DNA of 64,000 nt, from NCBI GenBank assembly GCA_049322615.1, contig JBMORX010000010.1:89416-153415 (forward strand), given 5' to 3'. The notes under the pieces were generated by a model that saw only the letters and a list, made by a program, of their open reading frames with translations, was not told where the DNA came from and searched no databases. The stretch comes from Patescibacteria group bacterium (GTDB lineage Bacteria > Patescibacteriota > Microgenomatia > CAYGWK01). The position numbers and the translations under genes are program-made. Below, piece by piece: positions 3,001-60,721 of this stretch. The first letter of the stretch is position 1. Each line of letters opens with the position of its first letter.

Positions 3001-6000
3001 TTTTTCACTTGGTGCCGTCGTCCCAATTCCCACATTCCCTAAATTATTAACCGTCAGAGCCGGTGTCCAGGCATTGACTCCGGATTTGTAGTCAAGAGTT
3101 AAAAGTCCAGCATTTCTTGGTCTGACTGCTCCTCCCGAAGCAAGATACAGATTTCCAGAAACTGAAGCATCTCCAGAAACATCAAGTTTAGCTAAAGGCG
3201 AGGTGGTCCCAATTCCAATCTGTCCGCCTGTTTCATAAATTATGGAATCGGTTAAAGATGAAGAAGTACTCCATTTGGGAAGGTAGTTTTGTGTTCCCGA
3301 ACCAGAAACCCCACTTGCTCCTGAAGCCACTGCCTTCCAAGAAGAACCATCACAATAGTAGTATTCATCTTGGGCATTGTCATAGTACATTTTCCCTTCA
3401 GAGGAAGCATCACAGGTTCCCGCATAGGCCTGAACTTGGGGTCCTAGAGCTAAAGTCCCAGAAATAGTGGCGTCTTCTGCCAAAGTCAGGTCATTGGCAA
3501 TATAGGTATTGTGAGCCACAATCCCGTTGGCAACAAAGTTGGCGGTATTGGCAATCTGAAGATCATAGACATGTTTTTTACCAGCAGGCTTGATAGAGAC
3601 AATTTTCTCCCACTTGACCCCGCTATATTCCTTAGCATTCGCCTTTTTAATACTATTCGTATACGGCTCATGCTGCGGATTTACGGGGTCTGCGCCCTGT
3701 ACCGAGAAGGGAACTTGGTGGTGGGGCTTGACATCACCTAATTTACTTGTGGTAGAATGATTATCGATGGGAGAGTTAAAAGGAGAACCCAAAGTATATT
3801 CGGAATTTTTCACTAACGGAGCAGTCGCTTGGCTTTCAGCTGGGGTAATTGCGCCCTTATTTGCCAGAACATTAGGAATGAAGGAGGTAATTGCTTCTTT
3901 GATTTCTATTTCTTCTTGTATATTGTTTTTAAAATTAGCCTCTGATTTTAGCAAGGAGGGTCGATGATTGCTGATAATATTTTGATTGCCTACAGTATTG
4001 GAGTGATTATGAGTAGTATTATAATTATTTATGCCTACTTTCGCTTGAAAAAGTGAGGAATTATGAGTATTGAGACTATTGTTTATATCTTGGCGATTAT
4101 TTTCGGGGTGATTGCTTTCTATATTGCCTTCTTCAAGGTGCGTTAAGTTGGCAACCGCTATTTCTTCCCTTTCTTTTAAGAAAATAACTTTCTTCCACCC
4201 ATCAGGCGTTAGGTACGGGTGATTTCCGGTGGTTTCGATCCTTTTGCCTGATTCGGTTTTTAACTCATAAACTTCCTGAATGCCTTTGTCCAGAGTTTTT
4301 TCCACTTTCTGCCAGGCAAATTCTCCAGTATTTTCGTTTAAGGACAAAACTCTGTCTCCAGGTTTAACATCCTTTATTTGTTTATTTGACATTTGACATT
4401 TGACATTTGACATTTGACATTGTGCTACAGGCACTAAGCTATCCTCGGCCACACATTCTCCTGCTACATGGAGTTTTTTGGAAGGCCCCGTCGTCCCGAT
4501 GCCGACGTTGCCGGTATTGATCCAGGAATTGTTACCAGATGTACCAGTGAGTTTTACTAAAGCCGAGGAGGTAGCCGTTGCTCCAAGCAAAACATCATCA
4601 GTGATATTGGTGGGGGAGAGTGCTTGGGCATTTCTTTGCCAATAGCCCGAGGTTCCGGAAGAAGGAGAGTAGATGTTATTGGCATACAAAGCATTCCAAT
4701 ACAAAGATGAAGAACCCAGGTTTCTTGTCCCCGTTGCCTCGGGAGTAATATCTCCAGCTACCTGTAATTTTGAACCAGGACTTGTCGTCCCGATGCCGAC
4801 GTTGCCGCTAATATACGTGTCCCCGTTACCTAAGATTGAAAGTCCTTTCCCAGTTGTATAATCTGAAAGTGTTACTGCATTATGAGTTGCATCACCTTCA
4901 CCCTTAATAATCCATTCTCCATAAGCAGCAGGCCCGATGAAATAATTATCCGAATCAGAGTGGCGAAAATAATCTACATATAGACTGCTCCAGTGACTTG
5001 TAGACAGACCCAAATGTCGGTTGGCGCCAGAAGGAAGGATATGACCTGCTGCTTGGATACTACCCAAAACATCCAGCTTTTGACCCGGATTCGTCGTCCC
5101 GATGCCGACATAACCTTGTTCGGTCATTACCATTCCCGTTGTCCAGGCATCGGCTCCAGATTTATAGGCAAGTTGGAGTGGTCCGTAGGCAGGTCTAATG
5201 GTTTGTCCTTGACCAATGGTTAGGGTTCCAGACATTGAAGCATTGCCGGTAGTTCCTTCAAAATAGAGTTTGGCAGAAGAAGTGGCGGTTCCCCCAATGG
5301 CGACTGATTCGTAAGTGTTGTTGGGATAAATAACTCCACTGGTCTTTGTCCAATATCCTGAAGTTCCACTCGAGCCGCCATAGATATTATTGACATAAAG
5401 ATTATTCCAGTAAAGTGAAGTAGAACCTAAATCGTAAGTGTTTCCAGAGGAGGGAATGAGATTTGAGGCGACGTTGGCGTTTAAAGTTAAGTTTCCGGCT
5501 AAGGTTAAGGCGTTAAGGTTACCAGTGCCAGAGGAATTGATATAATAGGTGGTTCCGCCGCCAACGCTGATTCCCGCTGATGAGACAATATAAGACGCTG
5601 ATTGTTCGCCGATATCCAAAGAAACACCGCCAGCGCCGGTAATATCGCCGCCGGAAACGGTAATATCACCAGTAAAATAAGAACCAGTGGTATTGGCCCG
5701 AAGAATACCGGCGGCTGAGGCATTGCCGCTATAGTCAACTGTAAACTTAGGAGAAGGCGTCGAGCCGGATTCAAGTTTTAAAAGATTTAAATTGGTATTA
5801 TTGTTGGCTACCGAGCCATATAAAAGAGTATTTGCTTCTCGACCGCCTGATGAGCCGAGATTAGCATCGGTGGCGCTTATCACATTTCCCGTCCCGCCTG
5901 ACAAAGTTAGGTTTAGCACTCCGGAGCCATCGGGTGCTATGGCAATATTGCCGTTGGTGCCGGTATCGGTCACAATCGAGAGCGCCTGACCTCTAATTTG

Positions 6001-20918: not shown

Positions 20919-21068
20919 TGGCTCGGGTAGGAATTTGTTGTTCGGTTTCGTCATGGCATCCCCCTTCGGGGGTCGCCCTCGGATTCAAGGTTTCAAAACT
21001 CAAGTTGTGTTCCGGAGTCCTCGGGCTTGCCAGGTGAAACCTTCACAAAAATTCTACCCTCGCCCTTA
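20919..21068 (+). repeat. R-element copy 1. This is a ~150-nt structured intergenic repeat with a closing helix P1 (GGGTAGGAATT/AATTCTACCC), the conserved TTGTTG.TCGGTTTC and AAACTCAAGTTGTGTTCC boxes, two variable hairpins, and the tail CCTCGCCCTTA.
   Basis: It aligns with the copies at 22306, 22529, 32621, 35128 (divergent) and 39995 (partial). The helix pairs differ in sequence but stay complementary. Confidence 0.7.
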
Positions 21069-21137: not shown

Positions 21138-22301
21138 GTGATGACTGCAGAGAACACCATCCAGAACTTTATAATCCGGATGGGACCAGGAAAGAACAAC
21201 CCAAAGAAGAGGGTGAGCAACCAGCAGAAGAGTAAACTAAACTGGTTTTTGTTTTTGGTCTTTCTTTCTCTTTTGTTTCTATTGCGGCTTGGGACTTTTC
21301 TTAAGCCGCAATTTGTTTCCGGGACAAAAATTAAAATTACTGGAACCTTGCATCAGGAACCGAAAAGAACTGGTGGGCTGCAGAGGTTTTCTCTCGCTGG
21401 AATAAAAATCACCACCTGGAGATATCTGGAATATCATTATGGCGATAGGCTGGAGGCGGTGGGAATAGTCAAAGAGAACAATCTTGAGTTGCCTGAGATT
21501 AAGAAAGAAGAAAGAAGGGCGGAGAGAGGAGTTTTATTTTGGATTTACAGACTCCGGCAAAAAATTGAGGAAATTTACCGGCGGACCCTTCCTGAACCCC
21601 AGGCCAGCTTACTTTCGGGCGTTGTTTTGGGTTCGAAATCGGGGATGCCAGCCGATTTTTATGAAGCCTTGCGAAAAACTGGCACTCTCCATGTTGTCGT
21701 GGCTTCGGGCATGAATGTTTCTATTTTAGCCGGCACCTTGGTTTCTTTTTTAATTTTATTTATTTCCCGAAAGAAAGCTGTTATTTTAAGTTCTATTTTG
21801 ATATGGTTTTATGTGCTTTTGGCAGGAGGGGAGGCACCAGTGGTAAGGGCAGGGATTATGGGAACCCTGGCTTTTTTAGCTCAAGGGTTAGGTCGGGAAG
21901 AAGATGCTTGGCGGGGATTGGGGTTGGCCGCCGGGATTTTACTGTTTTTAAATCCTTTAAATATTACAGATTTAGGCTTTCAACTTTCTTTTTCGGCGAC
22001 TTTTGGAATTTTATTCTTCGGACCCCTGTTTAGCAGATTATTTGCTAGACTGCCAAAACAGATTCGTTCTGATTTAAGCCAAACTTTGGCAGCCCAAATT
22101 GTAACTTTACCAATTATAATTTTGAATTTTGGTTATTATTCTGCCCTTTCACCCTTGGTTAATGTTTTGGTGGTTTTCGTTTTGCCTTGGATTATGAGAT
22201 TGGGAATTTTGGTGGCGGTTGGCGGTCAAATTTTTGCCTGGCTGACTTTGCCTTTTTTGACTTATTTTGTCTGGGTTGTAAAATTGTTTTCAAGGATTTA
22301 A
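21138..22301 (+). CDS. comEC: ComEC/Rec2 competence channel domain (membrane part). The start is probably downstream of 21138.
   Basis: TGTLHVVVASGMNVSILAG...GGEAPVVRAGIMGTLAFLAQGLGRE... matches the ComEC competence domain. The ORF ends at the first R2/R3 element. Confidence 0.75.
   Translation: MMTAENTIQNFIIRMGPGKNNPKKRVSNQQKSKLNWFLFLVFLSLLFLLRLGTFLKPQFVSGTKIKITGTLHQEPKRTGGLQRFSLAGIKITTWRYLEYHYGDRLEAVGIVKENNLELPEIKKEERRAERGVLFWIYRLRQKIEEIYRRTLPEPQASLLSGVVLGSKSGMPADFYEALRKTGTLHVVVASGMNVSILAGTLVSFLILFISRKKAVILSSILIWFYVLLAGGEAPVVRAGIMGTLAFLAQGLGREEDAWRGLGLAAGILLFLNPLNITDLGFQLSFSATFGILFFGPLFSRLFARLPKQIRSDLSQTLAAQIVTLPIIILNFGYYSALSPLVNVLVVFVLPWIMRLGILVAVGGQIFAWLTLPFLTYFVWVVKLFSRI
22261..22291. 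repeat. 31-nt direct repeat CTTATTTTGTCTGGGTTGTAAAATTGTTTTC, copy 1 (the 3' end of the comEC-N ORF).
   Basis: An identical copy lies at 22489-22519. The pair brackets R-element copy 2. Confidence 0.85.
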
Positions 22302-22305
22302 CTTT

Positions 22306-22456
22306 GGCTCGGAGACGAACGTTTTGCTTGAGTTTAGAGATGACGTCCGATTAAATCGGACACGGCCTGCTTAGATGAAGATTTTAAGACTCAAGTTGTG
22401 TCCCGGGAGGCGCAGGCCTGTCACATTAAACTCTGCGCAAAAGTTGTCTCCTCGCC
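22306..22456 (+). repeat. R-element copy 2 (P1 is GGAGACGAAC/GTTGTCTCC).
   Basis: ggctcggagacgaacgttttgcttgagtttagagatgacgtccgattaaatcggacacggcc...aaactcaagttgtgtcccgggaggcgcaggcctgtcacattaaactctgcgcaaaagttgtctcctcgcc. Nearly identical to copy 4 at 32621. Confidence 0.75.
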
Positions 22457-22488
22457 ATCTTTAGAAGAAAAATTTATTTAATTTTTAT

Positions 22489-22519
22489 CTTATTTTGTCT
22501 GGGTTGTAAAATTGTTTTC
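22489..22519. repeat. 31-nt direct repeat, copy 2.
   Basis: Identical to 22261-22291. Confidence 0.85.
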
Positions 22520-22528
22520 GTAGGGATG

Positions 22529-22740
22529 TGGCTCGGGAATGAATTTGTTGCTTGGATTTAGTGATGGCTCCCGCCAATTAGGCGGGACCAGCTCGCGACT
22601 GGGTAATTCGAAACTCAAGTTGTGTTCCAGGGGGTCGCGGCTTGGAACGTCAGACGTTCCTTGCCACTTAAATCCGGCGCAAAAATTATTCCCTCGCCCT
22701 TAATTTCTTAATATCTTAGTCTCTTAATATCTTTTATTTT
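22529..22740 (+). repeat. R-element copy 3 (P1 is GGGAATGAATT/AATTATTCCC) plus the 3' tail CCTCGCCCTTAATTTCTTAATATCTTAGTCTCTTAATATCTT, which runs up to the ATG at 22741.
   Basis: Shares the same boxes. The tail is shared with copy 4 (32770-32811), which ends at the mreB ATG. Confidence 0.7.
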
Positions 22741-31343: not shown

Positions 31344-32588
31344 CTAGCGAAGTGAGATGGCGTAGAGGTTTAAGGGTAAGTCTTTACCCAAGGCAGTTAA
31401 AATTAGAATTTTGTTGCCAGCCGGGAAGGGAAAGGCGAATGGAAATTCATAAGGACCAGAATAAACCACTGTCCTGTTTGTTCCATCGTATTCCATAATA
31501 ATAATTTTTTCCTTTTCAACCTGAATTAAATGCTTGCTGGTGGGAAACCAGGCAATGTTTGCTCCTTCAGCCGCTATCCAGAAATTCCGATCCTCTTTGA
31601 TATCGTAAACATAGGTTTGACCTACTTTGATGGTTCTTTCTTGTTTTTGGGTTGAGGCAGCCGGTAACGCTGGTATTAGATTTTCTGAAATATTGGCCGA
31701 GGCAGTGGCGGTGTAGAGAATTTTTGTCTCATCGGGAGCAAAAACTATATCTTGAGATGAGCCTTGAATGATTTTCAAGAGTTCTTGGGGAAGCTTTTTT
31801 AATTTCTGATCCCCTCTTTCCTTTGCCTCTTTCTCCCAAAGGCGTTGAATTGTCGTTAAGTTTGCGAAAACATCAACTAGTTGGGTGTTGGTCGTAAAGA
31901 CGCTCACGTCAACTAAAAAATTTTCTTCGGTTTTTCCAAGCTTTTCAGTCACGGCTAGGCCGTGCCTAGACGGGAGGCTGACGAGAATCTGTTTTGAATC
32001 TGGAGACCATTTATAGGTTGATTTTGAGAAATCTCTTCCATGGAGAACACTTCGGACAATCTGTCTTGGTTCTTTGGGCAACCATTGTTGTCCAAATGGA
32101 AGTTCGGATAGATCCAGGACCCAAAGACCATTCTTGTCAACTTCAGCCCCGGAGACACTATAGACAATTTTTGTTCCGTCTGGAGAAAAAACCGGGTTTT
32201 GCGCTCCGGTAAAGGTTAAAGCCTTAAGATCAGATACCTGGGGAAAAAGATAGGCATCGGTTTTAACCACCAGTTCTTTTTCAATTTTTAGGGTCTTCTT
32301 CCAGGGAATAAAGCCATCTTTTTTGATTTCCACCTCATAAGTTCCAGGAGAAAGTGAGATGGTGGTATTGGTGGCACTTTTTAATTGATTGTTGAGCCAG
32401 ACTTGGGCTCCGTCGGGGATTGAAGTGGCGACTAAAAGCCCGGTTGGAAGAAAGGTTTTTTTACCAAGATCTGGTTTGTACCCTTTGGCTAGTTGTATCA
32501 CCAAGTATGTTGAGCCTAAAATGGCAAAAACTATGGTGATAAAGATTAAAAATCGTTTTCCTATCATATTATGGACAAAGTATATCAT
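31344..32588 (-). CDS. Membrane-anchored protein with a PEGA-like domain and a TolB-like beta-propeller (PD40-type repeats).
   Basis: N-terminal TM, then TYEVEIKKDGFIPWKKTLKI (PEGA-like), then repeated SPDG..I.. motifs (FSPDGTKIVYSV, WSPDSKQILVSL, FAPDETKILYTA). Confidence 0.55.
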   Translation of the reverse strand: MIYFVHNMIGKRFLIFITIVFAILGSTYLVIQLAKGYKPDLGKKTFLPTGLLVATSIPDGAQVWLNNQLKSATNTTISLSPGTYEVEIKKDGFIPWKKTLKIEKELVVKTDAYLFPQVSDLKALTFTGAQNPVFSPDGTKIVYSVSGAEVDKNGLWVLDLSELPFGQQWLPKEPRQIVRSVLHGRDFSKSTYKWSPDSKQILVSLPSRHGLAVTEKLGKTEENFLVDVSVFTTNTQLVDVFANLTTIQRLWEKEAKERGDQKLKKLPQELLKIIQGSSQDIVFAPDETKILYTATASANISENLIPALPAASTQKQERTIKVGQTYVYDIKEDRNFWIAAEGANIAWFPTSKHLIQVEKEKIIIMEYDGTNRTVVYSGPYEFPFAFPFPAGNKILILTALGKDLPLNLYAISLR

Positions 32589-32620
32589 AAGTTGGTATAA
32601 TTGGGAAGTTTTTGGTTTGT

Positions 32621-32811
32621 TGGCTCGGAGACGAACGTTTTGCTTGAGTTTAGAGATGACGTCCCGCTTTGCGGGACACGGCCTGCTTAGATGAAGATTT
32701 CAAAACTCAAGTTGTGTTCCGGGAGGCGCAGGCCTGTCACATTAAACTCTGCGCAAAAGTTGTCTCCTCGCCCTTAATTTCTTAATATCTTAGTCTCTTA
32801 ATATCTTAAAA
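32621..32811 (+). repeat. R-element copy 4 plus its tail, directly abutting the mreB start codon.
   Basis: Near-identical to copy 2 (22306-22456) except for the P2 hairpin loop. The tail cctcgcccttaatttcttaatatcttagtctcttaatatcttaaaa is followed by the ATG at 32812. Confidence 0.75.
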
Positions 32812-35109: not shown

Positions 35110-35127
35110 TAATTTTCGCTAGGTATC

Positions 35128-35300
35128 GACTCGGAGACGAACGTTTTGCTTGAGTTTAGATTGGATTGTTAGATTATTTGCTAGGGTATAGGGGATGAGT
35201 TAAGGTGAAGTAGCGCGTTACGGCTACGTCAATGGGTGACGTTACCCATAAACCAATCCTTAACGCGCCGCGTCACCATCACCGTAACCGTAACCTTTAT
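35128..35300 (+). repeat. R-element copy 5 (the 5' half CTCGGAGACGAACGTTTTGCTTGAGTTTAG is conserved, the 3' part divergent).
   Basis: The first 34 nt match copies 2 and 4. The rest carries GTTAC/GTAAC-rich hairpins. Confidence 0.5.
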
Positions 35301-39994: not shown

Positions 39995-40100
39995 GGTGGA
40001 GATGAATTTTTGTTTTTTGGGTTCGGGAACGAATTTTTGCTTGGATTTAAAAATGGTTCCCGCCGATTCGGGGACCTACTGGCTTAAGTTAGTTTTCAAT
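39995..40100 (+). repeat. R-element copy 6 (partial or degenerate).
   Basis: ggggtggagatgaatttttgtt...gggaacgaatttttgcttggatttaaaaatggttcccgccgattcggggacc. Shares the 5' boxes and the P2-type hairpin. Confidence 0.45.
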
Positions 40101-54495: not shown

Positions 54496-54855
54496 AATCT
54501 TTTTGCATTGAAATCGTGAGGTGCTATAATTAAAAAGATGGGAAGTCCCGAAAGCAAGAAGCAGGAAACCCCGGCAGAGATCTTTGGTCGAGCACTCGCC
54601 GGTTCAATTCCACCCACAATTCTTGATTGCTTTGGATCTATGGTTGAACAGTTAGGCTGGCGGACCTTTCTTGCTCAGGAGGATAAGGTGAGCCCCCCTG
54701 CATCTTCCGGAGGAGCAGGAAAAATAGTTTACCCTGAGTTTGCCGAAGGGCCTCAAAAGCCAAAATTTCCTCCTAGTTTACCCTGCCTGCCCGTCTCTGG
54801 AGGGAGCCTGTCGAAGGGCCAAAATTTCCCCCGAAAAATCTGTTAGAATGAAATT

Positions 54856-55185
54856 ATGGCTTGGAAAGTAAAATTTTTTCAGACAAAAAGAGGGGATTAT
54901 CCAGTAAAAGAATTTATTGAAAAACTTGAAAAGAAGACATATACACGAGCATTGAAATCAATAACTTTGCTTTCTAATTTCGGACCCTTTGTGAGGATGC
55001 CATATTCAAAGAAAATTGCCCCACACCTCTATGAATTAAGAATTAAAGGAGCAGAATCAATCAGAATTCTTTATGTTCAGGTTAATCAGGTTTACTATCT
55101 GGTCCACATTTTTAAGAAAAAGACAGACAAAATTCCCATGCGAGAGATAAAAACTGCTCTTGACAGAGCAAAAGAATTAAGATAA
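54856..55185 (+). CDS. HigB/Gp49-like type II toxin (RelE/ParE superfamily).
   Basis: MAWKVKFFQTKRGDYPVKEFIEKLEKKT...LYELRIKGAESIRILYVQVNQVYYLVHIFKKKTDKIP. It is paired with the downstream XRE HTH gene. Confidence 0.55.
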   Translation: MAWKVKFFQTKRGDYPVKEFIEKLEKKTYTRALKSITLLSNFGPFVRMPYSKKIAPHLYELRIKGAESIRILYVQVNQVYYLVHIFKKKTDKIPMREIKTALDRAKELR

Positions 55186-56233: not shown

Positions 56234-56878
56234 GTGGCAGCTTCTAATAAAATCTTTAAGCTTTATCTTGATTTTCTTCAAAAACATGGCTCTCCGGAAA
56301 AATTCTGGCCGCAATGGTGTGCTTTGAGAAAATCGCCAAAACAAAGAGAGTTGATCGCCATTGGGGCGATTTTAACCCAGAGAACAAGTTGGCACAATGC
56401 TGATTTGTCTTTACGCAATCTAAAGAAGGCCGGTTTACTTTCTCTAAAGAAGGTTAGTGATTTAGACAATTATAACCAGCTTAGAGAATTAATCAGACCG
56501 GCAGGCTTCTACCAGAGTAAGCCTCGACGCCTTTATGATTTTTGTTCTTTTATTATCAAAGAATATAGCAGTTTGGAAAAGTTTATGAAAGAGGATTTAA
56601 AGATTGCTCGAGAAAAATTACTTTCACTTTATGGCATTGGCCCAGAGACAGCCGACACCATTCTTTTATACGCCTTGGACAGGCTAAGTTTTGTGATTGA
56701 CGAGTACACTAAGAGGCTAGTTAAAAAAAGAGGGTTAGCCACAAGTTTTACTTATGATTATCTTAAAGATTTTTTTGAGAGAAACTTACCTCAGGAAGTT
56801 AAGGCCTACCAGGAGTTCCACGCCTTAATAATTGTTGAAGAAAAAGGTAAAGCAAGTTCGATAATGAAGAGGGTCTAG
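56234..56878 (+). CDS. HhH-GPD superfamily DNA glycosylase (endonuclease III-like, with no C-terminal FeS cluster).
   Basis: LLSLYGIGPETADTILLYAL (helix-hairpin-helix plus Gly/Pro loop) followed by VIDEY (catalytic Asp). Confidence 0.65.
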   Translation: MAASNKIFKLYLDFLQKHGSPEKFWPQWCALRKSPKQRELIAIGAILTQRTSWHNADLSLRNLKKAGLLSLKKVSDLDNYNQLRELIRPAGFYQSKPRRLYDFCSFIIKEYSSLEKFMKEDLKIAREKLLSLYGIGPETADTILLYALDRLSFVIDEYTKRLVKKRGLATSFTYDYLKDFFERNLPQEVKAYQEFHALIIVEEKGKASSIMKRV

Positions 56879-57090
56879 ACTCCCGCTTTTAAATTTGCCC
56901 CGTCCTTTGCTCTTCTTGACAAAATTCCGCACGTGCCAGATTTTGTCAAGAGGATACGATTACCCCTAGCCTTGCATATTTTATGCCGATCGGCTCAAAA
57001 TAAGTAGTAGGAGCACCGAGGAAGAAGTTTAAGAAATCTTAAAATTTTCCGGGAAGATTTGATTATTTTAATCTATTAGTATATAATACG

Positions 57091-57128
57091 ACCTAGATTT
57101 AGCCTCTGCGTAAGCAGAGGCTTTTCTT
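57091..57128 (+). terminator. Rho-independent terminator.
   Basis: agcctctgcgtaagcagaggcttttctttg. Perfect 9-bp stem with a GTAA loop, followed by a T-run. Confidence 0.8.
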
Positions 57129-57199
57129 TGCCCTCCTAAGATCGCCCCTTGAGCCGTGTTCGAATAGAACTGAGAAGGCGAAAGGGAAGATCAGGAGGG
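57128..57199 (+). promoter_or_regulatory. Structured 5' leader (conserved RNA motif, copy B). The anti-SD CCCTCCT (57131-57137) pairs with the SD AGGAGGG (57193-57199) and encloses the core CGCCCCTTGAGCCGTGTTCGAATAGAACTGAGAAGGCGAAAGGGAAGATC.
   Basis: The SD is 10 nt upstream of the ATG at 57210. The core is homologous to 10031-10080, with compensatory changes. Confidence 0.5.
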
Positions 57200-57209
57200 T
57201 TGATGGCTT

Positions 57210-57929
57210 ATGAGAGAACAAATTCTTGCTTTAGTAACTCTTGCTTCGACCACGCTAAGCGTGGTTTCTTCGGCCGTGGGACCACTGGTTTCTCCTGTGC
57301 CTGAAGTTCAGGTTTTGGCAGAGCACACTTTAGATTTAGGGACAAGAAACAAAAATCCCTTTGTTAATGAAGTTTTCGCGGATAATATTCTTCTGGCGCT
57401 TCATTATTTTAAAGGAGATGCAGATGGTTTTAAACTGGATCCGGAGAAATCCGGACCAGGTAATATTAACTGGGAAAAAGTCAGGGAGCCATTTGAGTCT
57501 GTCTTGGTTTTACAGGCAGGAGAAATTTTTGCCTTTCATGGTTTTCTTCTTAGGGAGTATCAAGGTTTGAATGTCAAAACTGGCAAGACAAAATACACCC
57601 ATAGCGAAGGATATAAAACCGTTGGGGGACTTCCGGGAAACGGCGTTTGTCATCTTGCCTCTCTTATAAACTGGACTGCCTCTGGGGCCAGCCTCGCTCT
57701 AGACGGCGAGTCTAGGCGGACTGGACTTGAAGTGGTTTCCAAAGTGAACCACAACTTTCTTCCTGTTCCTGGTGTACCTCGCGAGTTTGGTACTTCAATC
57801 CGATACAGTCCAAATGGGGCAAGAAACAGTCAAAATCAAAATCTTTATATTAGAAATAATTTAGGCATCCCGATTACTTTTGTTTTTAGAGCTAATTCTT
57901 CCTCGGTTACTCTGATGATTGTTCAGTAG
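57210..57929 (+). CDS. Secreted hypothetical protein (239 aa).
   Basis: Signal peptide MREQILALVTLASTTLSVVSSAVGPLVSP. No recognised motif. Confidence 0.45.
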   Translation: MREQILALVTLASTTLSVVSSAVGPLVSPVPEVQVLAEHTLDLGTRNKNPFVNEVFADNILLALHYFKGDADGFKLDPEKSGPGNINWEKVREPFESVLVLQAGEIFAFHGFLLREYQGLNVKTGKTKYTHSEGYKTVGGLPGNGVCHLASLINWTASGASLALDGESRRTGLEVVSKVNHNFLPVPGVPREFGTSIRYSPNGARNSQNQNLYIRNNLGIPITFVFRANSSSVTLMIVQ

Positions 57930-58261
57930 AAAAAAGTATTTTAACTTGACAAAGTGTGTTTTATGTGTTATACTATGAGCCATAATTAAGAGACCTGCTC
58001 TTTAAATTATAAATTATAGAGAACTTCTAAATTTTCCGAGAATCCTTATTCTTTTTCCGAGATTTTAATTACCTTTTCTTTCTGTTCTTTAAATGATGAC
58101 AGAAAGAAGCGGTAATTCGCTTCAGCACATTAAATAAAAAAAGGAGGTGGAACGGAGCCGGGTAAGGGACACTTGCCCGAAGCGGAGCGGAGTCGACTGC
58201 CGAGACACCCCGAACCGCAAGGCGGGGAAATGGATAAGGCAGAGGGTTAAGGGAGGCAAAA

Positions 58262-58597
58262 ATGGCACTCCTACTAAATGCAACGCCCCACCAGATAAAT
58301 CTGGTGGATGCGGATGGGAAGACCATCCGCACGATCGAACCGTCTGGAGTGGTGGCTCGTTGCACCGCCACCCAAACGGAGGTCGGTCAGATCGAAGGAA
58401 TACCGATCGTGAAGTCGGTGTTCTCCGAGGTCACCGGCCTGCCCGAGCCGGATGGCGAGACGGTCTACATCGTCTCGTCTCTGGTAGCCCAGGCCCTGGC
58501 GGGTAAGCGCGAGGTGGTATCCCCTGACACCGGTCCCACTGCGCTGCGCACTCCGGATGGCAAGATCGCCGGAGTTCGCCGCTTCCAGAAGTTTTAG
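58262..58597 (+). CDS. Hypothetical protein (111 aa) in the GC-rich island.
   Basis: Strong RBS. ORF MALLLNATPHQINLVDADGKTIRTIEPSGVVARCTATQTEVGQ... Confidence 0.5.
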   Translation: MALLLNATPHQINLVDADGKTIRTIEPSGVVARCTATQTEVGQIEGIPIVKSVFSEVTGLPEPDGETVYIVSSLVAQALAGKREVVSPDTGPTALRTPDGKIAGVRRFQKF

Positions 58598-58632
58598 GGA
58601 GCGGAAAATTCTGAGCTTTTAAGGAGGACGAA

Positions 58633-58836
58633 ATGGCTACGCACGAGCTGTCCCTGGTTGCTTCGGGCGATTTTATCGATCGCCTGAAGATGTTGGGGAT
58701 CACCCCTCAGGTTGAAGGGTTTTCCGTCCCCTGTGAACTTTGTGGGGGCCACGGTTGCTCCTTCTGCGATGAGGGCCAGTTTGACACCGGCACTATCCGT
58801 TGGGAAGGGCCGGAGTACGAGGGAGGAGGAGTCTGA
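58633..58836 (+). CDS. Small Cys-rich (zinc-binding?) protein (67 aa) in the island.
   Basis: CELCGGHGCSFCDEGQ. Strong RBS. Its stop abuts the next ATG (TGATG). Confidence 0.5.
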   Translation: MATHELSLVASGDFIDRLKMLGITPQVEGFSVPCELCGGHGCSFCDEGQFDTGTIRWEGPEYEGGGV

Positions 58837-59099
58837 TGGAGATCTTAATAAGAAGGAGAAGAAGTCACCCAGTAGTGACCTGCCCGGCCTGCGGAAACTT
58901 AAACCCGCAGATCGAAGGGTGGTGCGTTTTCTGTGGCGCACCACTCGCCGGGTTAACCCCTGAACCTCGGCGCCGTCTCGCACGACTTGCGTGCGGGCAC
59001 GAGGTGGAAGGGCCGGAGGTGCCCATCGGCGCCAGCGTCTGGTGTCCTCTGTGTCCGGCAGAGGAGAACGCCATGACGCAGGTGGTGTATCTCCTTTAG
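58836..59099 (+). CDS. Small zinc-ribbon protein (87 aa) in the island. The start is taken at the Met of MEILIRRRR.
   Basis: CPACGNLNPQIEGWCVFCG ... CGHEVEGPEVPIGASVWCPLCPAEE (two CxxC pairs twice). Confidence 0.5.
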   Translation: MEILIRRRRSHPVVTCPACGNLNPQIEGWCVFCGAPLAGLTPEPRRRLARLACGHEVEGPEVPIGASVWCPLCPAEENAMTQVVYLL

Positions 59100-59406
59100 G
59101 CCGCCCCGGCGATCCCACGTCCCAAGGAAAAGCTCAAGACTACCGACTCGCAAGAGTAGGTGCTGTTGATGGTGCGTAAGGTCGAAAGACACTTACCTAG
59201 GAACAGCTTAATGTGTACATACTAGCTCAGGGACACCTAAAGCGGATTAAGTGGAGAATGGAAGAGATAGTTTAAATGCAATTATCCTCATTCTTCTATT
59301 CTTTGCTTGACAATTCTGCCCAGGGGGGAGAAAGAAGAGTCTCTTTAAAAGAGCTCTCAATTTCCTCCCTGGGCTGTCGAAATTATTTCGGGAGGCTTAA
59401 TAGAAT

Positions 59407-60297
59407 TTATCTTTCAAGGTAAGAGAAAATGTATTCTTTTAATGATTCTAGTATTTGTTTATCTTTAAGTTTTTGAGTTGCCCTCTTTAAAGCATTCAAC
59501 GATTTTATTTTTTTAGCATTAATTAGCTTTTTAATCTTTTGGGGAGCGATCCCTTTGGCTTGAGCAAGTGCCTGGGTCATTTCAATAAGCTGGATAAGAG
59601 AGGCTTTGGGTACTTGGGAAATTGGCATTTTTTGGTGTTTTGCTAAATGAACTAAACCTTTAGGATAAGTAAGCTTGACCCTCTTCTTTTTGAAAATCTC
59701 ATTAAGGCAGATTTCCGCGCCAAGTCTGGCTTCTTTGATTTTATTAAGATGAGGAAGGAGGTCTTTTTTAAAGTAAGCCCGAAAGCCAGTAAACCTCCAA
59801 AAGGGATCGGGAAGCCGGCTAGTGGTAGTTCCCAAAACGGCATCGGCTTGACCCTTGATTAATGGCTTTGTTAAAGTTTTTATATGGCTATTTTTGACAT
59901 TTAGGTGATGAGCGTCCATAAAAATAACGAGTTCACCCCTGGCTTTTTCTACTCCTGTGGCCATGGCGTAGCCTTTACCTTGATTTTTCTTGTAAGAAAT
60001 AATTTTAATCTTATCCTGCCAGCTTGAGGATTTAAGAATTTCTAAAGTTTTATCGGTTGAGCCATCATTGACGACAATAATTTCTGAAACAGCCCTACAG
60101 GGGAGAAGCGATTCAATCACCTTAGCTATCCATCTTTCCTCATTAAAGCAAGGAATGATGATAGAGGTTTGGGGAGTTGTCATAATTTTCATAAGTTGTA
60201 TAATAGCACAAGATGGACAAATATTTTTGGGTCTTTGCTCTTTTGATGCTATCTTGCGTGTTCTGGGCTTTCTGGGAGTCGGCAGCCGAGGGACCAT
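59407..60297 (-). CDS. Family-2 glycosyltransferase (dolichyl-phosphate mannosyltransferase-like).
   Basis: SIIIPCFNEERWIAKVIESL...EIIVVNDGSTDKTLEIL (GT2 DxD region). Confidence 0.8.
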   Translation of the reverse strand: MVPRLPTPRKPRTRKIASKEQRPKNICPSCAIIQLMKIMTTPQTSIIIPCFNEERWIAKVIESLLPCRAVSEIIVVNDGSTDKTLEILKSSSWQDKIKIISYKKNQGKGYAMATGVEKARGELVIFMDAHHLNVKNSHIKTLTKPLIKGQADAVLGTTTSRLPDPFWRFTGFRAYFKKDLLPHLNKIKEARLGAEICLNEIFKKKRVKLTYPKGLVHLAKHQKMPISQVPKASLIQLIEMTQALAQAKGIAPQKIKKLINAKKIKSLNALKRATQKLKDKQILESLKEYIFSYLER

Positions 60298-60385
60298 ATG
60301 GTGGAGCGAGAAAATTCTACGGGTTCAGATTAAAAATTAAGGGCATTACGATCACTTTCGATACCATTTCTTTGTTCTTTTAGCC

Positions 60386-60649
60386 ATGATTCCGACCTTT
60401 TTGATGGCGATTTGGGTGGCTTCGGGTTTTGATCCCAGGATGAGTAAAATCCTGCTCGGCTCTTTTCCAATAATGATCGTTTTTGAAGATTTTTTATGGT
60501 TTTTAGTTAACCCTTTTTATGGCTATAAAAACTTTCTACCCCAAAAAGCAAAGTGGGCTCTGGGTCCCTGGTTTATTTTCGGCCCAATACACTTTCCAAT
60601 TCTTTACCTCCCTGCTTTACTGTTGGGGATAGCTATTCTTCTTATTTGA
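60386..60649 (+). CDS. Small membrane protein (87 aa), hypothetical.
   Basis: Hydrophobic ORF that abuts the tRNA. Confidence 0.3.
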   Translation: MIPTFLMAIWVASGFDPRMSKILLGSFPIMIVFEDFLWFLVNPFYGYKNFLPQKAKWALGPWFIFGPIHFPILYLPALLLGIAILLI

Positions 60650-60721
60650 GCCGAGGAGCGGGCTCGAACCGCCGACCTAGTCATTACCAATGACTTGCTC
60701 TACCAGCTGAGCTACCTCGGC
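60650..60721 (-). tRNA. tRNA-Thr (anticodon GGU).
   Basis: gccgagg-ta-gctc-agctggta-gagc-a-agtca-ttggtaa-tgact-aggtc-ggcgg-ttcgagc-ccgct-cctcggc. A TATAAT box lies ~25 nt upstream. Confidence 0.85.

What the first reader, a model, noticed from the sequence alone, without database searches (positions are those of the whole stretch)
58130..59200. Sharp GC-rich island with three small Cys-rich genes
Composition jumps from under 40% to over 60% GC (by eye) for about 1.1 kb. Inside are three consecutive plus-strand ORFs with strong RBSs (AAGGGAGG, TAAGGAGG, GAGGGAGGAGG), and two of them are CxxC-rich zinc-ribbon-like proteins. The stop of the second abuts the ATG of the third (TGATG). Both flanks are typical AT-rich host sequence. 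This is either very recent horizontal acquisition (phage, plasmid, or DNA from a GC-rich host or partner organism) or a chimeric assembly. Smaller GC-rich patches occur at 47381-47860 (a secreted protein) and 48000-48300 (GC hairpins).
Basis: seen in the sequence. Interest (0 to 1): 0.6.

Follow-up and report, generated by a model that had tools for sequence, protein, structure and literature searches.

The report
Orphan Crn4 ring-nuclease cassette, GC-rich
The GC-rich patch is a real, horizontally acquired three-gene cassette in a Patescibacteria (CPR) chromosome; its first gene encodes a Crn4-type ring nuclease, an enzyme family that destroys the cyclic-oligoadenylate alarm signals of type III CRISPR/CBASS immunity, followed by two orphan zinc-ribbon proteins. 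It is a new member of a recently described family, not a new kind of system.

Summary
Window 58130-59200 is 58.9% GC against 42.1% for the rest of the window. It holds three plus-strand ORFs with strong Shine-Dalgarno sites and third-codon-position GC (GC3) of 0.65-0.71, against 0.40 for host ORFs.

ORF1 (58262-58597, NCBI MFZ5366583.1 'hypothetical protein') belongs to the Crn4 ring-nuclease family:
- profile match to PDB Crn4b, E 1.4e-17;
- PADLOC Unk_01, E 6e-19;
- AlphaFold model (pLDDT 95.5) whose only significant Foldseek hits are Crn4;
- catalytic His and Arg conserved;
- dN/dS about 0.08 against relatives.

ORF2 and ORF3 are Cys-rich orphans with only self-hits in the 5.8-billion-protein homology search.

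An independent Logan assembly reproduces both GC junctions at 100% identity, so a chimera is unlikely.

The cassette sits in a variable interval between a VanW-like gene and tRNA-Thr. A syntenic relative lacks it. It has no integrase, no att repeat, and no neighbouring cas, cyclase or CARF genes.

Its sigma-70 promoter is conserved only in two related contigs, which carry crn4 in similar GC-rich islands.

Across the family, crn4 often forms a GC-rich islet in AT-rich phage genomes.

Most likely this is a moron-like, MGE-derived cassette that degrades cyclic oligoadenylate signals. That enzymatic activity and its role in the cell are inferred, not shown. Interest is moderate to low.

The parts
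57946..57974 (+). Sigma-70-type promoter TTGACA-17 nt-TATACT with an extended -10 TG, about 290 nt upstream of ORF1
   Evidence: 11 of 12 consensus matches. Unique in the window. The 37 nt at 57943-57979 are 86-89% identical to L001 2682-2718 and L002 3634-3669, upstream of their crn4 operons. Absent from IMG/VR and JGI metagenome scans.
57982..58261 (+). Predicted 5' leader. The first ~150 nt are AT-rich and carry a 19-bp-arm hairpin at 58067-58117. The last 132 nt (58130-58261) are GC- and purine-rich and mark the left edge of the island.
   Evidence: Inverted repeat I1. Fold z = -3.6. 56% GC in 58130-58261. No Rfam family. No translated similarity to genes neighbouring crn4 in relatives. 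The transcription start site is inferred.
58262..58597 (+). ORF1 = crn4-like gene (111 aa), a Crn4b-type ring nuclease. NCBI MFZ5366583.1, locus tag ACOZBZ_04910, annotated 'hypothetical protein'.
   Evidence: PDB profile hits: Crn4b 9r7b E 1.4e-17, Crn4a 9sma E 7e-13. PADLOC Unk_01 E 6e-19. PHROGs 21731/30542 E 1e-25. AF2 pLDDT 95.5. The only Foldseek PDB matches with E <= 0.001 are Crn4 chains, TM 0.69. T8, H10 and R96 are invariant and align to T13/H15/R112. dN/dS about 0.08 against L001/L002.
58633..58836 (+). ORF2 (67 aa), an orphan small protein with one CxxCxGxG-CxxC zinc knuckle (C34, C37, C42, C45)
   Evidence: SD TAAGGAGG 5 nt upstream. GC3>GC1>GC2. Only a self-hit in the 5.8-billion-protein homology search, from a Logan gene call; not in NCBI's protein set. 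No Pfam or NCBIfam family.
58836..59099 (+). ORF3 (87 aa), an orphan double zinc-ribbon-like protein, translationally coupled to ORF2 through the TGATG overlap
   Evidence: Pfam DZR 20.6 bits, below the 27.3-bit cut-off. Only a self-hit. Weak similarity to ORF2 (BLASTP E 0.008; shared PQ[VI]EG and EGPE motifs at equal spacing). The single-sequence AF2 model is poor, pLDDT 63.8.
59100..59200 (+). GC-rich non-coding trailer; right edge of the island
   Evidence: 56% GC. Stops in all three frames.
59249..59378 (.). Two stable hairpins (59249-59308 and 59309-59378, core arms 59318-59329/59363-59374) between the cassette and the convergent GT2 gene. Putative terminators.
   Evidence: Fold z = -5.2 for 59090-59400. 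Helix coordinates. Inverted repeat I20. Neither is followed by a U-run, and neither was listed by the terminator scan, so the terminator role is inferred.
57210..57929 (+). Left flank: host VanW-like gene (43% GC)
   Evidence: Pfam VanW sub-threshold, E 3e-4. Homologues in 16 JGI contigs. In L080 it is followed by different cargo.
59407..60721 (-). Right flank: GT2 glycosyltransferase (59407-60297) and tRNA-Thr(GGU) (60648-60721), both on the minus strand, with a small plus-strand membrane ORF (60386-60649) between them. The interval from VanW to the tRNA varies between relatives.
   Evidence: Pfam Glycos_transf_2 E 6e-29. tRNA. L080, L084 and L086 carry other genes between VanW and the tRNA. 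No tRNA-derived att repeat.

Best explanation
A self-contained expression cassette of about 1.4 kb was acquired horizontally into a variable chromosomal interval (VanW-like gene to tRNA-Thr) of a Patescibacteria genome. It consists of a promoter (57946-57974), a leader of about 285 nt, three genes and two 3' hairpins.

The first gene encodes a Crn4b-like ring nuclease. By homology this would be a small homodimer that binds cyclic oligoadenylates (cA3/cA4, possibly cA6) at the dimer interface. It would cut them to linear 2',3'-cyclic-phosphate products without a metal requirement. His10 would act as general acid and Arg96 from the partner subunit would hold the phosphate. The effect would be to lower cOA levels and switch off CARF/SAVED effectors of type III CRISPR or cA3-CBASS signalling.

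ORF2 and ORF3 are co-transcribed, translationally coupled orphan zinc-ribbon proteins. They are most likely accessory partners, regulators or further anti-defence proteins.

The foreign composition and the way crn4 occurs elsewhere point to the phage/MGE gene pool as the source. There crn4 circulates as a moron-like accessory (anti-defence) gene.

Shown: composition, gene signals, family membership by sequence, fold and catalytic residues, purifying selection, absence from a syntenic relative, and reproducible assembly.
Inferred: transcription unit, enzymatic activity and substrate range, MGE origin, and role in the cell.
For: Family membership:
- profile against PDB: Crn4b E 1.4e-17, Crn4a E 7e-13;
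- PADLOC Unk_01 E 6e-19, the name under which Crn4 was first predicted (PMC12830947);
- AF2 pLDDT 95.5, with Crn4 chains as the only Foldseek PDB matches at E <= 0.001;
- T8/H10/R96 invariant among 14 homologues and aligned to T13/H15/R112. H15A and R112A abolish activity in Crn4a.

Functional constraint: dN/dS 0.08 with saturated dS against L001/L002.

Foreign origin:
- GC3 0.65-0.71 against 0.40 +/- 0.06, and non-coding flanks at 56% GC;
- syntenic L080 (M50 73%, Fmt 70%, p112 85% identity) has other genes and no GC island between VanW and the tRNA.

MGE link:
- 65 IMG/VR loci found with only two peptide patterns;
- 22 GenBank phage records;
- PHROGs hits at 1e-25;
- in phage loci crn4 is typically a single-gene GC islet of 450-500 nt. 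It is the GC maximum of its locus in 17 of 54 loci.

Orphan status: no Cas10, CARF, SAVED, CD-NTase or mCpol hit among 54 window ORFs or among 67 neighbour proteins in 10 related loci, and no CRISPR array in the window.

Cassette structure: strong promoter, three near-consensus SDs and a TGATG coupling, 3' hairpins.

Zn-ribbon link: 9 of 162 top family members carry fused CxxC modules at the N-terminus, the C-terminus or internally.

Crn4 neutralises cOA-dependent immunity in vivo, and phage/plasmid copies are proposed anti-CRISPRs.
Against: - No activity data exist for this protein, and it is only 25-28% identical to the characterised enzymes.
- The residue equivalent to Crn4a R92, which stacks on adenine, is Ser73 here and in most close relatives.
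- The cassette has no integrase, transposase or att repeat and is not inside a recognisable prophage. The route of entry is therefore unknown.
- A chromosomal gene under purifying selection, with no MGE around it, has no obvious target for an anti-defence role.
- Only 64 kb of the 161.7-kb contig, and none of the rest of the genome, could be inspected for a cOA-producing system.
- ORF2 and ORF3 have no homologues, so their reality rests on intrinsic signals only.
- Small CxxC ORFs are not enriched next to crn4 in 60 loci.
Confidence: 0.7

Rival explanations
1. Domesticated housekeeping ring nuclease. The biochemistry is the same, but the cassette now serves the Patescibacteria cell itself. It would reset or buffer a cOA-signalling system (type III CRISPR, CBASS or a Panoptes-like guard) encoded elsewhere in the genome.
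For: Chromosomal location among housekeeping genes. Own strong promoter. Strong purifying selection. CRISPR-associated Crn4 does exactly this. Similar orphan crn4 islands occur in at least two other CPR-like lineages: L001/L002 and the Saccharibacteria MAG L009.
Against: No cas gene cluster, cyclase or CARF/SAVED effector and no CRISPR array in 64 kb. None among 67 neighbour proteins of related loci. The foreign codon usage is not ameliorated. The cassette is absent from syntenic L080.
Confidence: 0.25
2. DNA taken directly from a GC-rich host or partner organism of the episymbiont, rather than from a phage or MGE.
For: 59% GC with GC3 about 0.7. The characterised Crn4a/b come from Actinomyces and a Hyphomicrobiales bacterium, which are GC-rich lineages (my own knowledge). 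The same genome and relatives hold other GC-rich islets: 47381-47860, and a 683-aa protein in L084/L086.
Against: All close relatives found (45-80% identity) lie in AT-rich CPR-like or phage-like contigs, not in GC-rich genomes. An AT-rich promoter is shared with L001/L002. ORF2 and ORF3 have no homologue in any genome. The genome-collection scan used only two peptide patterns, so this test is weak.
Confidence: 0.1
3. The GC richness is intrinsic to the genes, through amino-acid composition or selection for GC-rich mRNA, and is not a sign of transfer.
For: Across 54 loci crn4 exceeds its neighbours at codon positions 1+2 by a median of +0.08, and it is in the top 5% of local GC in 29 of 54 loci. 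GC3 stays at 0.64-0.74 in the window, L001 and L002 although synonymous sites are saturated (dS about 1.6).
Against: The GC3 excess here is +0.31 against a family median of +0.05. The non-coding leader and trailer are also 56% GC. The unrelated ORF2 and ORF3 are equally GC-rich. Many family members in AT-rich phages have GC3 of 0.2-0.3. The cassette is absent from a syntenic relative.
Confidence: 0.1
4. Assembly chimera joining a GC-rich organism's fragment into an AT-rich contig.
For: Sharp composition boundaries. The source is a metagenome-assembled genome.
Against: Logan contig SRR32167786_131617, from a different assembler, is 100% identical over 56922-59339. It spans both boundaries and ends elsewhere. 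The promoter, SD and gene architecture is continuous across the left boundary. The same promoter-to-GC-rich-crn4 arrangement occurs in two other runs. A fragment of 1.07 kb with both ends joined in frame with regulatory signals is an unlikely chimera. The Logan run may be the same read set as the MAG, so read-level proof is lacking.
Confidence: 0.03
5. The island is a structured non-coding RNA gene, which is the usual reason for GC-rich patches in AT-rich genomes, and the ORFs are spurious.
For: The leader and trailer fold better than shuffled controls (z -3.6 and -5.2). ORF2 and ORF3 have no homologues.
Against: No Rfam family at gathering or E-value thresholds. ORF1 is a conserved protein with 11,186 family cluster representatives and dN/dS 0.08. 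Codon-position GC pattern and three consensus SDs.
Confidence: 0.01

Closest known systems
Crn4b ring nuclease (Hyphomicrobiales bacterium MBK8772583; PDB 9r7b; Chi et al., Nat Commun 2025, PMC12830947)
   Same: Same family by profile (E 1.4e-17) and fold (Foldseek E 9e-9, TM 0.69). Similar size (111 aa here; the solved chain is 128 aa), with the short form of the beta-hairpin arm. The catalytic His (H17 to H10), Arg (R103 to R96), the Thr of the N-L-T-P-H motif and the Ser of the V-S-R/S motif are conserved. The paper reports Crn4b in phage and plasmid genomes as well.
   Different: Only about 28% identical. Not next to Can2 or any type III CRISPR locus. The Arg after the conserved Ser (R92 in Crn4a numbering) is Ser here. 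It is encoded on a GC-rich islet in a Patescibacteria chromosome, in an operon with two orphan Zn-ribbon genes. Activity is untested.
Crn4a (Actinomyces procaprae WP_136192672; PDB 9sma, 9qs9)
   Same: Same fold and catalytic residues. Demonstrated cleavage of cA3, cA4 and cA6 and suppression of cOA-dependent immunity in vivo give the mechanistic model.
   Different: Crn4a has a hairpin about 10 residues longer, is linked or fused to Csm6-2/CorA in type III-D loci, and is 25% identical.
AcrIII-1 / Crn2 (DUF1874) viral ring nuclease
   Same: Works alike: a small dimeric, metal-independent cA4 phosphodiesterase with a His general acid. It is carried by viruses and plasmids to shut down type III CRISPR signalling and is occasionally adopted by cells.
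   Different: Unrelated fold and sequence. Not a family member.
Phage 'morons' and anti-defence accessory genes (for example the anti-CBASS phosphodiesterase Acb1)
   Same: Short insert with its own promoter and 3' hairpins, composition unlike its neighbours, and small accessory genes. Acb1 also degrades cA3. The moron concept is from my own knowledge (Hendrix and colleagues).
   Different: This cassette sits in a cellular chromosome, not between phage genes. No prophage surrounds it.

Membership tests
Crn4 ring nuclease family (Unk01) | Significant sequence similarity to characterised Crn4a/Crn4b | tested here: met
   Profile of 14 homologues against PDB: 9r7b E 1.4e-17, 9sma E 7e-13, 9qs9 E 4.5e-11. 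Single sequence: E 4e-4 to 5e-3. PADLOC Unk_01 E 6e-19.
Crn4 ring nuclease family (Unk01) | The Crn4 fold: beta-strand pairs, one short helix and an extended beta-hairpin arm, reported as unlike any other known fold | tested here: met
   AF2 model pLDDT 95.5 with a long hairpin at E36-44/E47-54 and one helix at 73-78. In Foldseek against PDB, only Crn4 chains reach E <= 0.001 (prob 1.00, TM 0.61-0.69); the next hit has E 1.4.
Crn4 ring nuclease family (Unk01) | Catalytic His (H15 in Crn4a, H17 in Crn4b) in the N-x-T-P-H motif, with the Thr (T13) behind it | tested here: met
   N6, T8, P9 and H10 are invariant in alignment A1. H10 aligns to the His of Crn4b and to the A15 position of the Crn4a H15A variant 9qs9. 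Role of the residue.
Crn4 ring nuclease family (Unk01) | Catalytic/phosphate-binding Arg (R112 in Crn4a, R103 in Crn4b) | tested here: met
   R96 is invariant in A1 and aligns to the R of 'IRD'/'VRD' in Crn4a/b (residue numbering worked out from the 9qs9 and 9r7b chains).
Crn4 ring nuclease family (Unk01) | Ligand-contacting S91-R92 pair (Crn4a numbering) | tested here: inconclusive
   The Ser is conserved (S72, invariant). The Arg is Ser73 here and is not conserved in A1. In Crn4a, R92 contacts cA6 through its main chain plus stacking, so the consequence is unclear.
Crn4 ring nuclease family (Unk01) | Homodimer with arm exchange; active site built from two subunits | not testable with these tools
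   Only a monomer could be modelled. The extended hairpin is present.
Crn4 ring nuclease family (Unk01) | Cleavage of cA3, cA4 and/or cA6 to linear 2',3'-cyclic-phosphate products | not testable with these tools
   Biochemical assay needed.
CRISPR-associated (cellular) Crn4 as opposed to MGE-borne or orphan copies | Location in or next to a type III CRISPR-Cas locus, or fusion to a CARF/SAVED effector | tested here: not met
   No Cas10/Csm/Cmr, CARF or SAVED hit among 54 window ORFs and no CRISPR array. One weak, unlocated Cas2-model hit (E 4e-6) is not among the 20 mostly small ORFs (102-235 aa) retested. None among 67 neighbour proteins in 10 related loci.
Zinc-ribbon proteins (Pfam DZR PF12773 / Zn_Ribbon_1) | Score above the curated Pfam threshold | tested here: not met
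   ORF3: DZR 20.6 bits against a 27.3-bit cut-off, and Zn_Ribbon_1 15.1 against 25. ORF2: no hit. The CxxC pairs are present by inspection, so 'zinc-ribbon-like' is a description, not a membership.
Integrative element or prophage at a tRNA gene | Integrase or recombinase gene and a direct repeat of the tRNA 3' end bounding the insert | tested here: not met
   No recombinase in the interval. The longest tRNA-Thr-derived match in 56800-60630 is 10 nt, on the opposite strand.
Moron-like accessory cassette | Own promoter and terminator flanking a short insert whose composition differs from its neighbours | tested here: met
   Promoter with 11 of 12 consensus matches. 3' hairpins, though without U-tracts. 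Composition contrast. These are consensus-level signals only; transcription was not measured.

The most novel reading that the evidence does not exclude
crn4 would travel among Patescibacteria (and their unknown phages or plasmids) as a promoter-equipped cassette. Its regulator-bound, AT-rich promoter is conserved while synonymous sites are saturated, and its coding part is kept GC-rich. In these ultra-small episymbionts the orphan ring nuclease, together with lineage-specific zinc-ribbon partners, would form a stand-alone module that quenches cOA signals. This would echo the Crn4-Zn-ribbon fusions seen elsewhere in the family. Such a module could blunt abortive-infection signalling or disarm guard systems, independently of any CRISPR locus.
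Probability: 0.15. Interest if true: 0.55.

Novelty: new member of a known kind. Interest (0 to 1): 0.35.

Why it matters
- It names a gene that NCBI lists as 'hypothetical protein', and it flags two genes that are absent from NCBI's protein set.
- It extends the Crn4 ring-nuclease family, described in December 2025 from 22 CRISPR-linked, 11 phage and 10 plasmid copies, to Patescibacteria/CPR genomes and to orphan contexts with no CRISPR locus nearby.
- The family is very large: 11,186 cluster representatives at 50% identity with E <= 1e-3.
- crn4 often appears as a GC-rich single-gene islet in AT-rich phage genomes, which fits rapid flux of an anti-signalling gene.
- Recurrent Crn4-zinc-ribbon fusions give a testable lead for the unexplained N-terminal extensions mentioned in the Crn4 paper, and for ORF2/ORF3.
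- None of this changes the picture of how ring nucleases work.

Tried and rejected
- **Rfam** at gathering and E-value thresholds over the island and its flanks gave only chance-level miRNA-type hits, so a known RNA family is rejected.
- **ORF2 and ORF3 homologues.** The 5.8-billion-protein homology search returned only self-hits. tblastn against all related loci found nothing. Pfam was sub-threshold, PHROGs gave only weak hits (E >= 0.01), and NCBIfam gave nothing. The single-sequence AF2 model of ORF3 was too poor (pLDDT 63.8) to justify a fold search.
- **Leader or trailer as relics of genes next to crn4 in L001/L002/L009.** No similarity was found.
- **Integration signature.** There is no tRNA-derived att repeat. 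The 19-nt inverted repeat 57853/59371 is no better than many chance pairs.
- **Promoter pattern scans** of IMG/VR and JGI metagenomes found nothing.
- **DNA search** of the cassette against PLSDB plasmids found no match.
- **Enrichment of small CxxC ORFs next to crn4** in 60 loci: none (0.035 per kb near crn4, 0.042 per kb away from it). Sequence similarity between ORF2/ORF3 and the fused Zn-ribbon modules goes no further than the Cys motifs.
- **Neighbours of crn4** in L001, L003, L004 and L009 gave no informative Pfam or PHROGs hits.
- **Locating the PADLOC Cas2-model hit.** The other single PADLOC hits look like generic-domain matches.
- **First genome-collection scan** failed because alignment A1 had no conserved stretch long enough to search with. 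It was redone with the narrower A2.
Full report
**1. Observation**

The composition jump is real and sharp.
- In 200-nt windows GC goes from 28-38% (57900-58199) to 53-64% (58100-59199), then falls to 31-42% by 59300-59599.
- The stated interval is 58.9% GC against 42.1% for the rest of the window.
- It is the most GC-rich 1071-nt stretch in the 64 kb.

The three plus-strand ORFs, their Shine-Dalgarno sequences and the TGATG overlap are exactly as described.

GC3 is 0.71, 0.65 and 0.66, with the GC3>GC1>GC2 pattern of real genes. The 44 long ORFs of the window average 0.40 +/- 0.06. The overlapping antisense and alternative-frame ORFs lack that pattern. The non-coding leader (58130-58261) and trailer (59100-59200) are also 56% GC, so the whole segment is compositionally foreign, not just the codons.

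**2. Source and assembly**

ORF1 is identical to NCBI MFZ5366583.1, 'MAG: hypothetical protein ACOZBZ_04910 [Patescibacteria group bacterium]', on a 161.7-kb contig. The window is chromosomal: it carries ribosomal proteins, aminoacyl-tRNA synthetases, MreB, NusG and seven tRNAs.

A Logan contig from run SRR32167786, built by a different assembler, is 100% identical to window 56922-59339. It spans both composition boundaries and ends elsewhere.

ORF2 and ORF3 exist only as Logan gene calls. They are missing from NCBI's protein set.

**3. What ORF1 is**

Pfam and NCBIfam give nothing. Other evidence is strong:
- PHROGs 21731 and 30542 match at 1e-25.
- PADLOC 'Unk_01, unknown small protein, sometimes fused to CARF' matches at 6e-19.
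- A profile of 14 homologues hits the three solved Crn4 structures: Crn4b 9r7b at 1.4e-17, Crn4a 9sma at 7e-13, and Crn4a H15A 9qs9 at 4.5e-11.
- The AlphaFold model is confident (pLDDT 95.5). In Foldseek against the PDB, only Crn4 chains reach E <= 0.001 (prob 1.00, TM up to 0.69); the next hit has E 1.4.

Crn4 was described in December 2025 (PMC12830947):
- It is a small homodimer with a new fold.
- It cleaves cA3, cA4 and cA6 (Crn4a) or cA3 and cA4 (Crn4b).
- His15 and Arg112 are essential.
- It relieves cOA-dependent immunity in vivo.
- Copies in phages and plasmids are proposed anti-CRISPRs.

In ORF1 the N-x-T-P-H motif (T8, H10) and R96 are invariant among homologues and align to T13/H15/R112. 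S72 matches S91. The following Arg (R92) is Ser73.

ORF1 has the short, Crn4b-type hairpin. Against the L001/L002 orthologues dS is about 1.6 and dN 0.12-0.14, so dN/dS is about 0.08 and the gene is under purifying selection.

**4. ORF2 and ORF3**

Both are orphans. The 5.8-billion-protein homology search returns only themselves. No related locus encodes a homologue.
- ORF2 carries a CxxCxGxG-CxxC knuckle.
- ORF3 carries three CxxC pairs and a sub-threshold Pfam 'double zinc ribbon' hit.
- They resemble each other weakly (E 0.008), sharing PQ[VI]EG and EGPE motifs at equal spacing. This hints at an old tandem duplication.

Their reality rests on three intrinsic signals: near-consensus SDs at 5-6 nt, translational coupling, and codon-position GC. 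ORF length alone is not significant at this GC content.

A link between Crn4 and zinc ribbons does recur. Of the 162 best family members, 9 carry fused CxxC modules (P0046 also gives a sub-threshold DZR hit):
- N-terminal: P0040, P0091, P0107.
- C-terminal: P0046, P0148, P0151.
- Inside the hairpin: P0006, P0034, P0101.

However, small CxxC ORFs are not enriched next to crn4 across 60 loci. The fused modules are similar to ORF2/3 only at the Cys motifs. In the CPR-type islands, Cys-rich neighbours occur again: a 225-aa protein in L001/L002 and a 66-aa ORF in L009.

**5. Cassette anatomy**

- A strong promoter lies at 57946-57974 (TTGACA-17-TATACT with an extended -10 TG). It is unique in the window.
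- The leader is about 285 nt and carries a 19-bp-arm hairpin at 58067-58117.
- The three genes follow.
- A GC-rich trailer and two stable hairpins (59249-59308 and 59309-59378) lie before the convergent GT2 gene. The hairpins lack U-tracts, so a terminator function is inferred.

The 37-nt promoter core is 86-89% identical in L001 and L002, upstream of their crn4-containing operons. It occurs nowhere else in the 90 loci, in IMG/VR or in JGI metagenomes. The rest of the leader does not align.

**6. Genomic context and origin**

No integrase, transposase, att repeat or prophage genes flank the cassette.

The interval between the VanW-like gene and tRNA-Thr/M50 protease is variable:
- The syntenic JGI contig L080 (M50 73%, p112 85%, Fmt 70%, VanW 50% identity) carries a 304-aa protein and a GIY-YIG nuclease there. 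It has no crn4, no GT2 and no GC island.
- L084 and L086 carry a different GC-rich cargo gene there.

Close relatives of ORF1 lie in similar GC-elevated islands in AT-rich contigs:
- L001/L002: 79/77% identity, islands about 1.6 kb at 54-55% GC in contigs of 37-39% GC.
- Saccharibacteria MAG L009: 55% identity.
- Phage-like contigs L003, L004/5 and L010.

The family is large and phage-rich:
- 11,186 cluster representatives at E <= 1e-3;
- 65 IMG/VR loci from only two peptide patterns;
- 22 GenBank phage records, from Bacillus, Paenibacillus, Microcystis and Thermobifida phages and archaeal viruses, all annotated as hypothetical.

Across 54 non-redundant loci:
- crn4 is the local GC maximum in 17 and in the top 5% in 29;
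- the excess at codon positions 1+2 has a median of +0.08, an amino-acid effect;
- the GC3 excess has a median of +0.05 but exceeds 0.25 in 8 loci. The window, at +0.31, falls in that same high range;
- in phage loci the islet is usually just the gene, about 450-500 nt.

No cOA cyclase or CARF/SAVED effector was found among 54 window ORFs or among 67 neighbour proteins from 10 related loci. The window has no CRISPR array.

**7. Interpretation**

The best-supported reading is a moron-like, horizontally acquired cassette whose key product is a Crn4b-type ring nuclease. The protein should degrade cA3/cA4 and so damp cOA-activated effectors. Family membership is solid. Enzymatic activity, substrate range, transcript structure, MGE origin and cellular role are inferred.

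What the enzyme does for this cell stays open, because only 64 kb could be inspected. It may be a relic of an anti-defence gene, or a domesticated buffer for a system encoded elsewhere.

One point is unexplained. The window and L001/L002 copies keep GC3 of 0.64-0.74 and a near-identical AT-rich promoter, although their synonymous sites are saturated. Two explanations are possible:
- a GC-richer MGE reservoir with a constrained, probably regulator-bound promoter and independent recent arrivals;
- maintenance of GC-rich coding sequence.

**8. Novelty and score**

No paper in the searched library connects ring nucleases with Patescibacteria. This is a new member of a known, very recently described family in an unusual orphan, CPR, GC-islet context. 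It comes with two unannotated orphan partners. It would modestly surprise a specialist and offers simple tests, but it does not open a new mechanism. Interest is 0.35.

Noticed in passing
window 47912-47987 (-): A tRNA with an 8-nt anticodon loop (CUCUUAAA between stem CTGGC/GCCAG). ARAGORN calls the anticodon 'ctta' and leaves the type undetermined. The Rfam tRNA alignment (54.7 bits) shows one extra loop base. It is either tRNA-Lys(CUU) with an inserted base or a four-base-anticodon, frameshift-suppressor-like tRNA.
   Followed up: partly
window 47381-47860 (-): A second GC-rich islet: the densest 1071-nt window, starting at about 47301, is 54.8% GC. It encodes a 159-aa protein with a signal peptide and no Pfam (E <= 1e-5), PADLOC or NCBIfam match. 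It lies directly beside the odd tRNA and is probably another horizontally acquired gene.
   Followed up: partly
window 48080-48270 (+): GC-rich hairpins, including tandem 'aggcttgcgaggct' copies, downstream of the odd tRNA. No Rfam family reaches significance.
   Followed up: partly
window 20987-21040, 22304-22733, 32620-32807, 35126-35170, 40017-40061: A dispersed repeat family, with copies up to 97-100% identical over 45-99 nt, lies beside a 387-aa ORF (21138-22301, +) and a 414-aa ORF (31344-32588, -). Two window ORFs hit Pfam Y1_Tnp (IS200-like). Together these look like IS200/IS605-type elements with conserved, possibly RNA-encoding ends.
   Followed up: no
window 54538-55185 (+): An adjacent pair of small genes, 102 aa and 109 aa. 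The second is Gp49/HigB-like (Pfam PF05973, E 7e-20), so this is a probable toxin-antitoxin pair 3 kb upstream of the cassette.
   Followed up: no
window, ORFs not located: Single PADLOC hits to LmuA (1e-20), mad2, RTasMBL, Avs1a, PDC-M48B, NsnC and Cas2 models (4e-6) occur among the 54 scanned ORFs. The Cas2-model hit is not in any of the 20 mostly small ORFs (102-235 aa) that were retested. The hits are probably generic-domain matches but remain unresolved.
   Followed up: partly
L001 3096-3155 / 4005-4065 and 3925-4000 / 4900-4990: In the related contig, the intergenic regions before successive genes of the crn4 operon repeat each other. One repeat is a hairpin gcccgaRgg...ccctcgggc followed by tgctcccaattttggagRcagatggaagcacat. 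The other is cggcaggtggaaatctgaagagaac...tttctgcc. This suggests cassette-like leaders or recombination sites.
   Followed up: no
L006 2812-3141 and 3371-3700: Two tandem crn4-like genes lie in one phage-like ENA contig. P0015 (238 aa) and P0022 (243 aa) appear to be tandem double-Crn4 fusions.
   Followed up: no
L084 ~4000-6000, L086 2017-4068 (-): Other CPR-like contigs carry a different GC-rich cargo (53-62% GC; a 683-aa secreted protein) in the same interval between VanW and the tRNA. The site therefore seems to be a recurrent landing place for foreign DNA.
   Followed up: partly
proteins P0040, P0091, P0107, P0046, P0148, P0151, P0006, P0034, P0101: Crn4 domains fused to CxxC zinc-ribbon modules at the N-terminus, the C-terminus or inside the hairpin loop. 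This may explain some of the 'N-terminal extensions of unknown function' noted in the Crn4 paper.
   Followed up: partly
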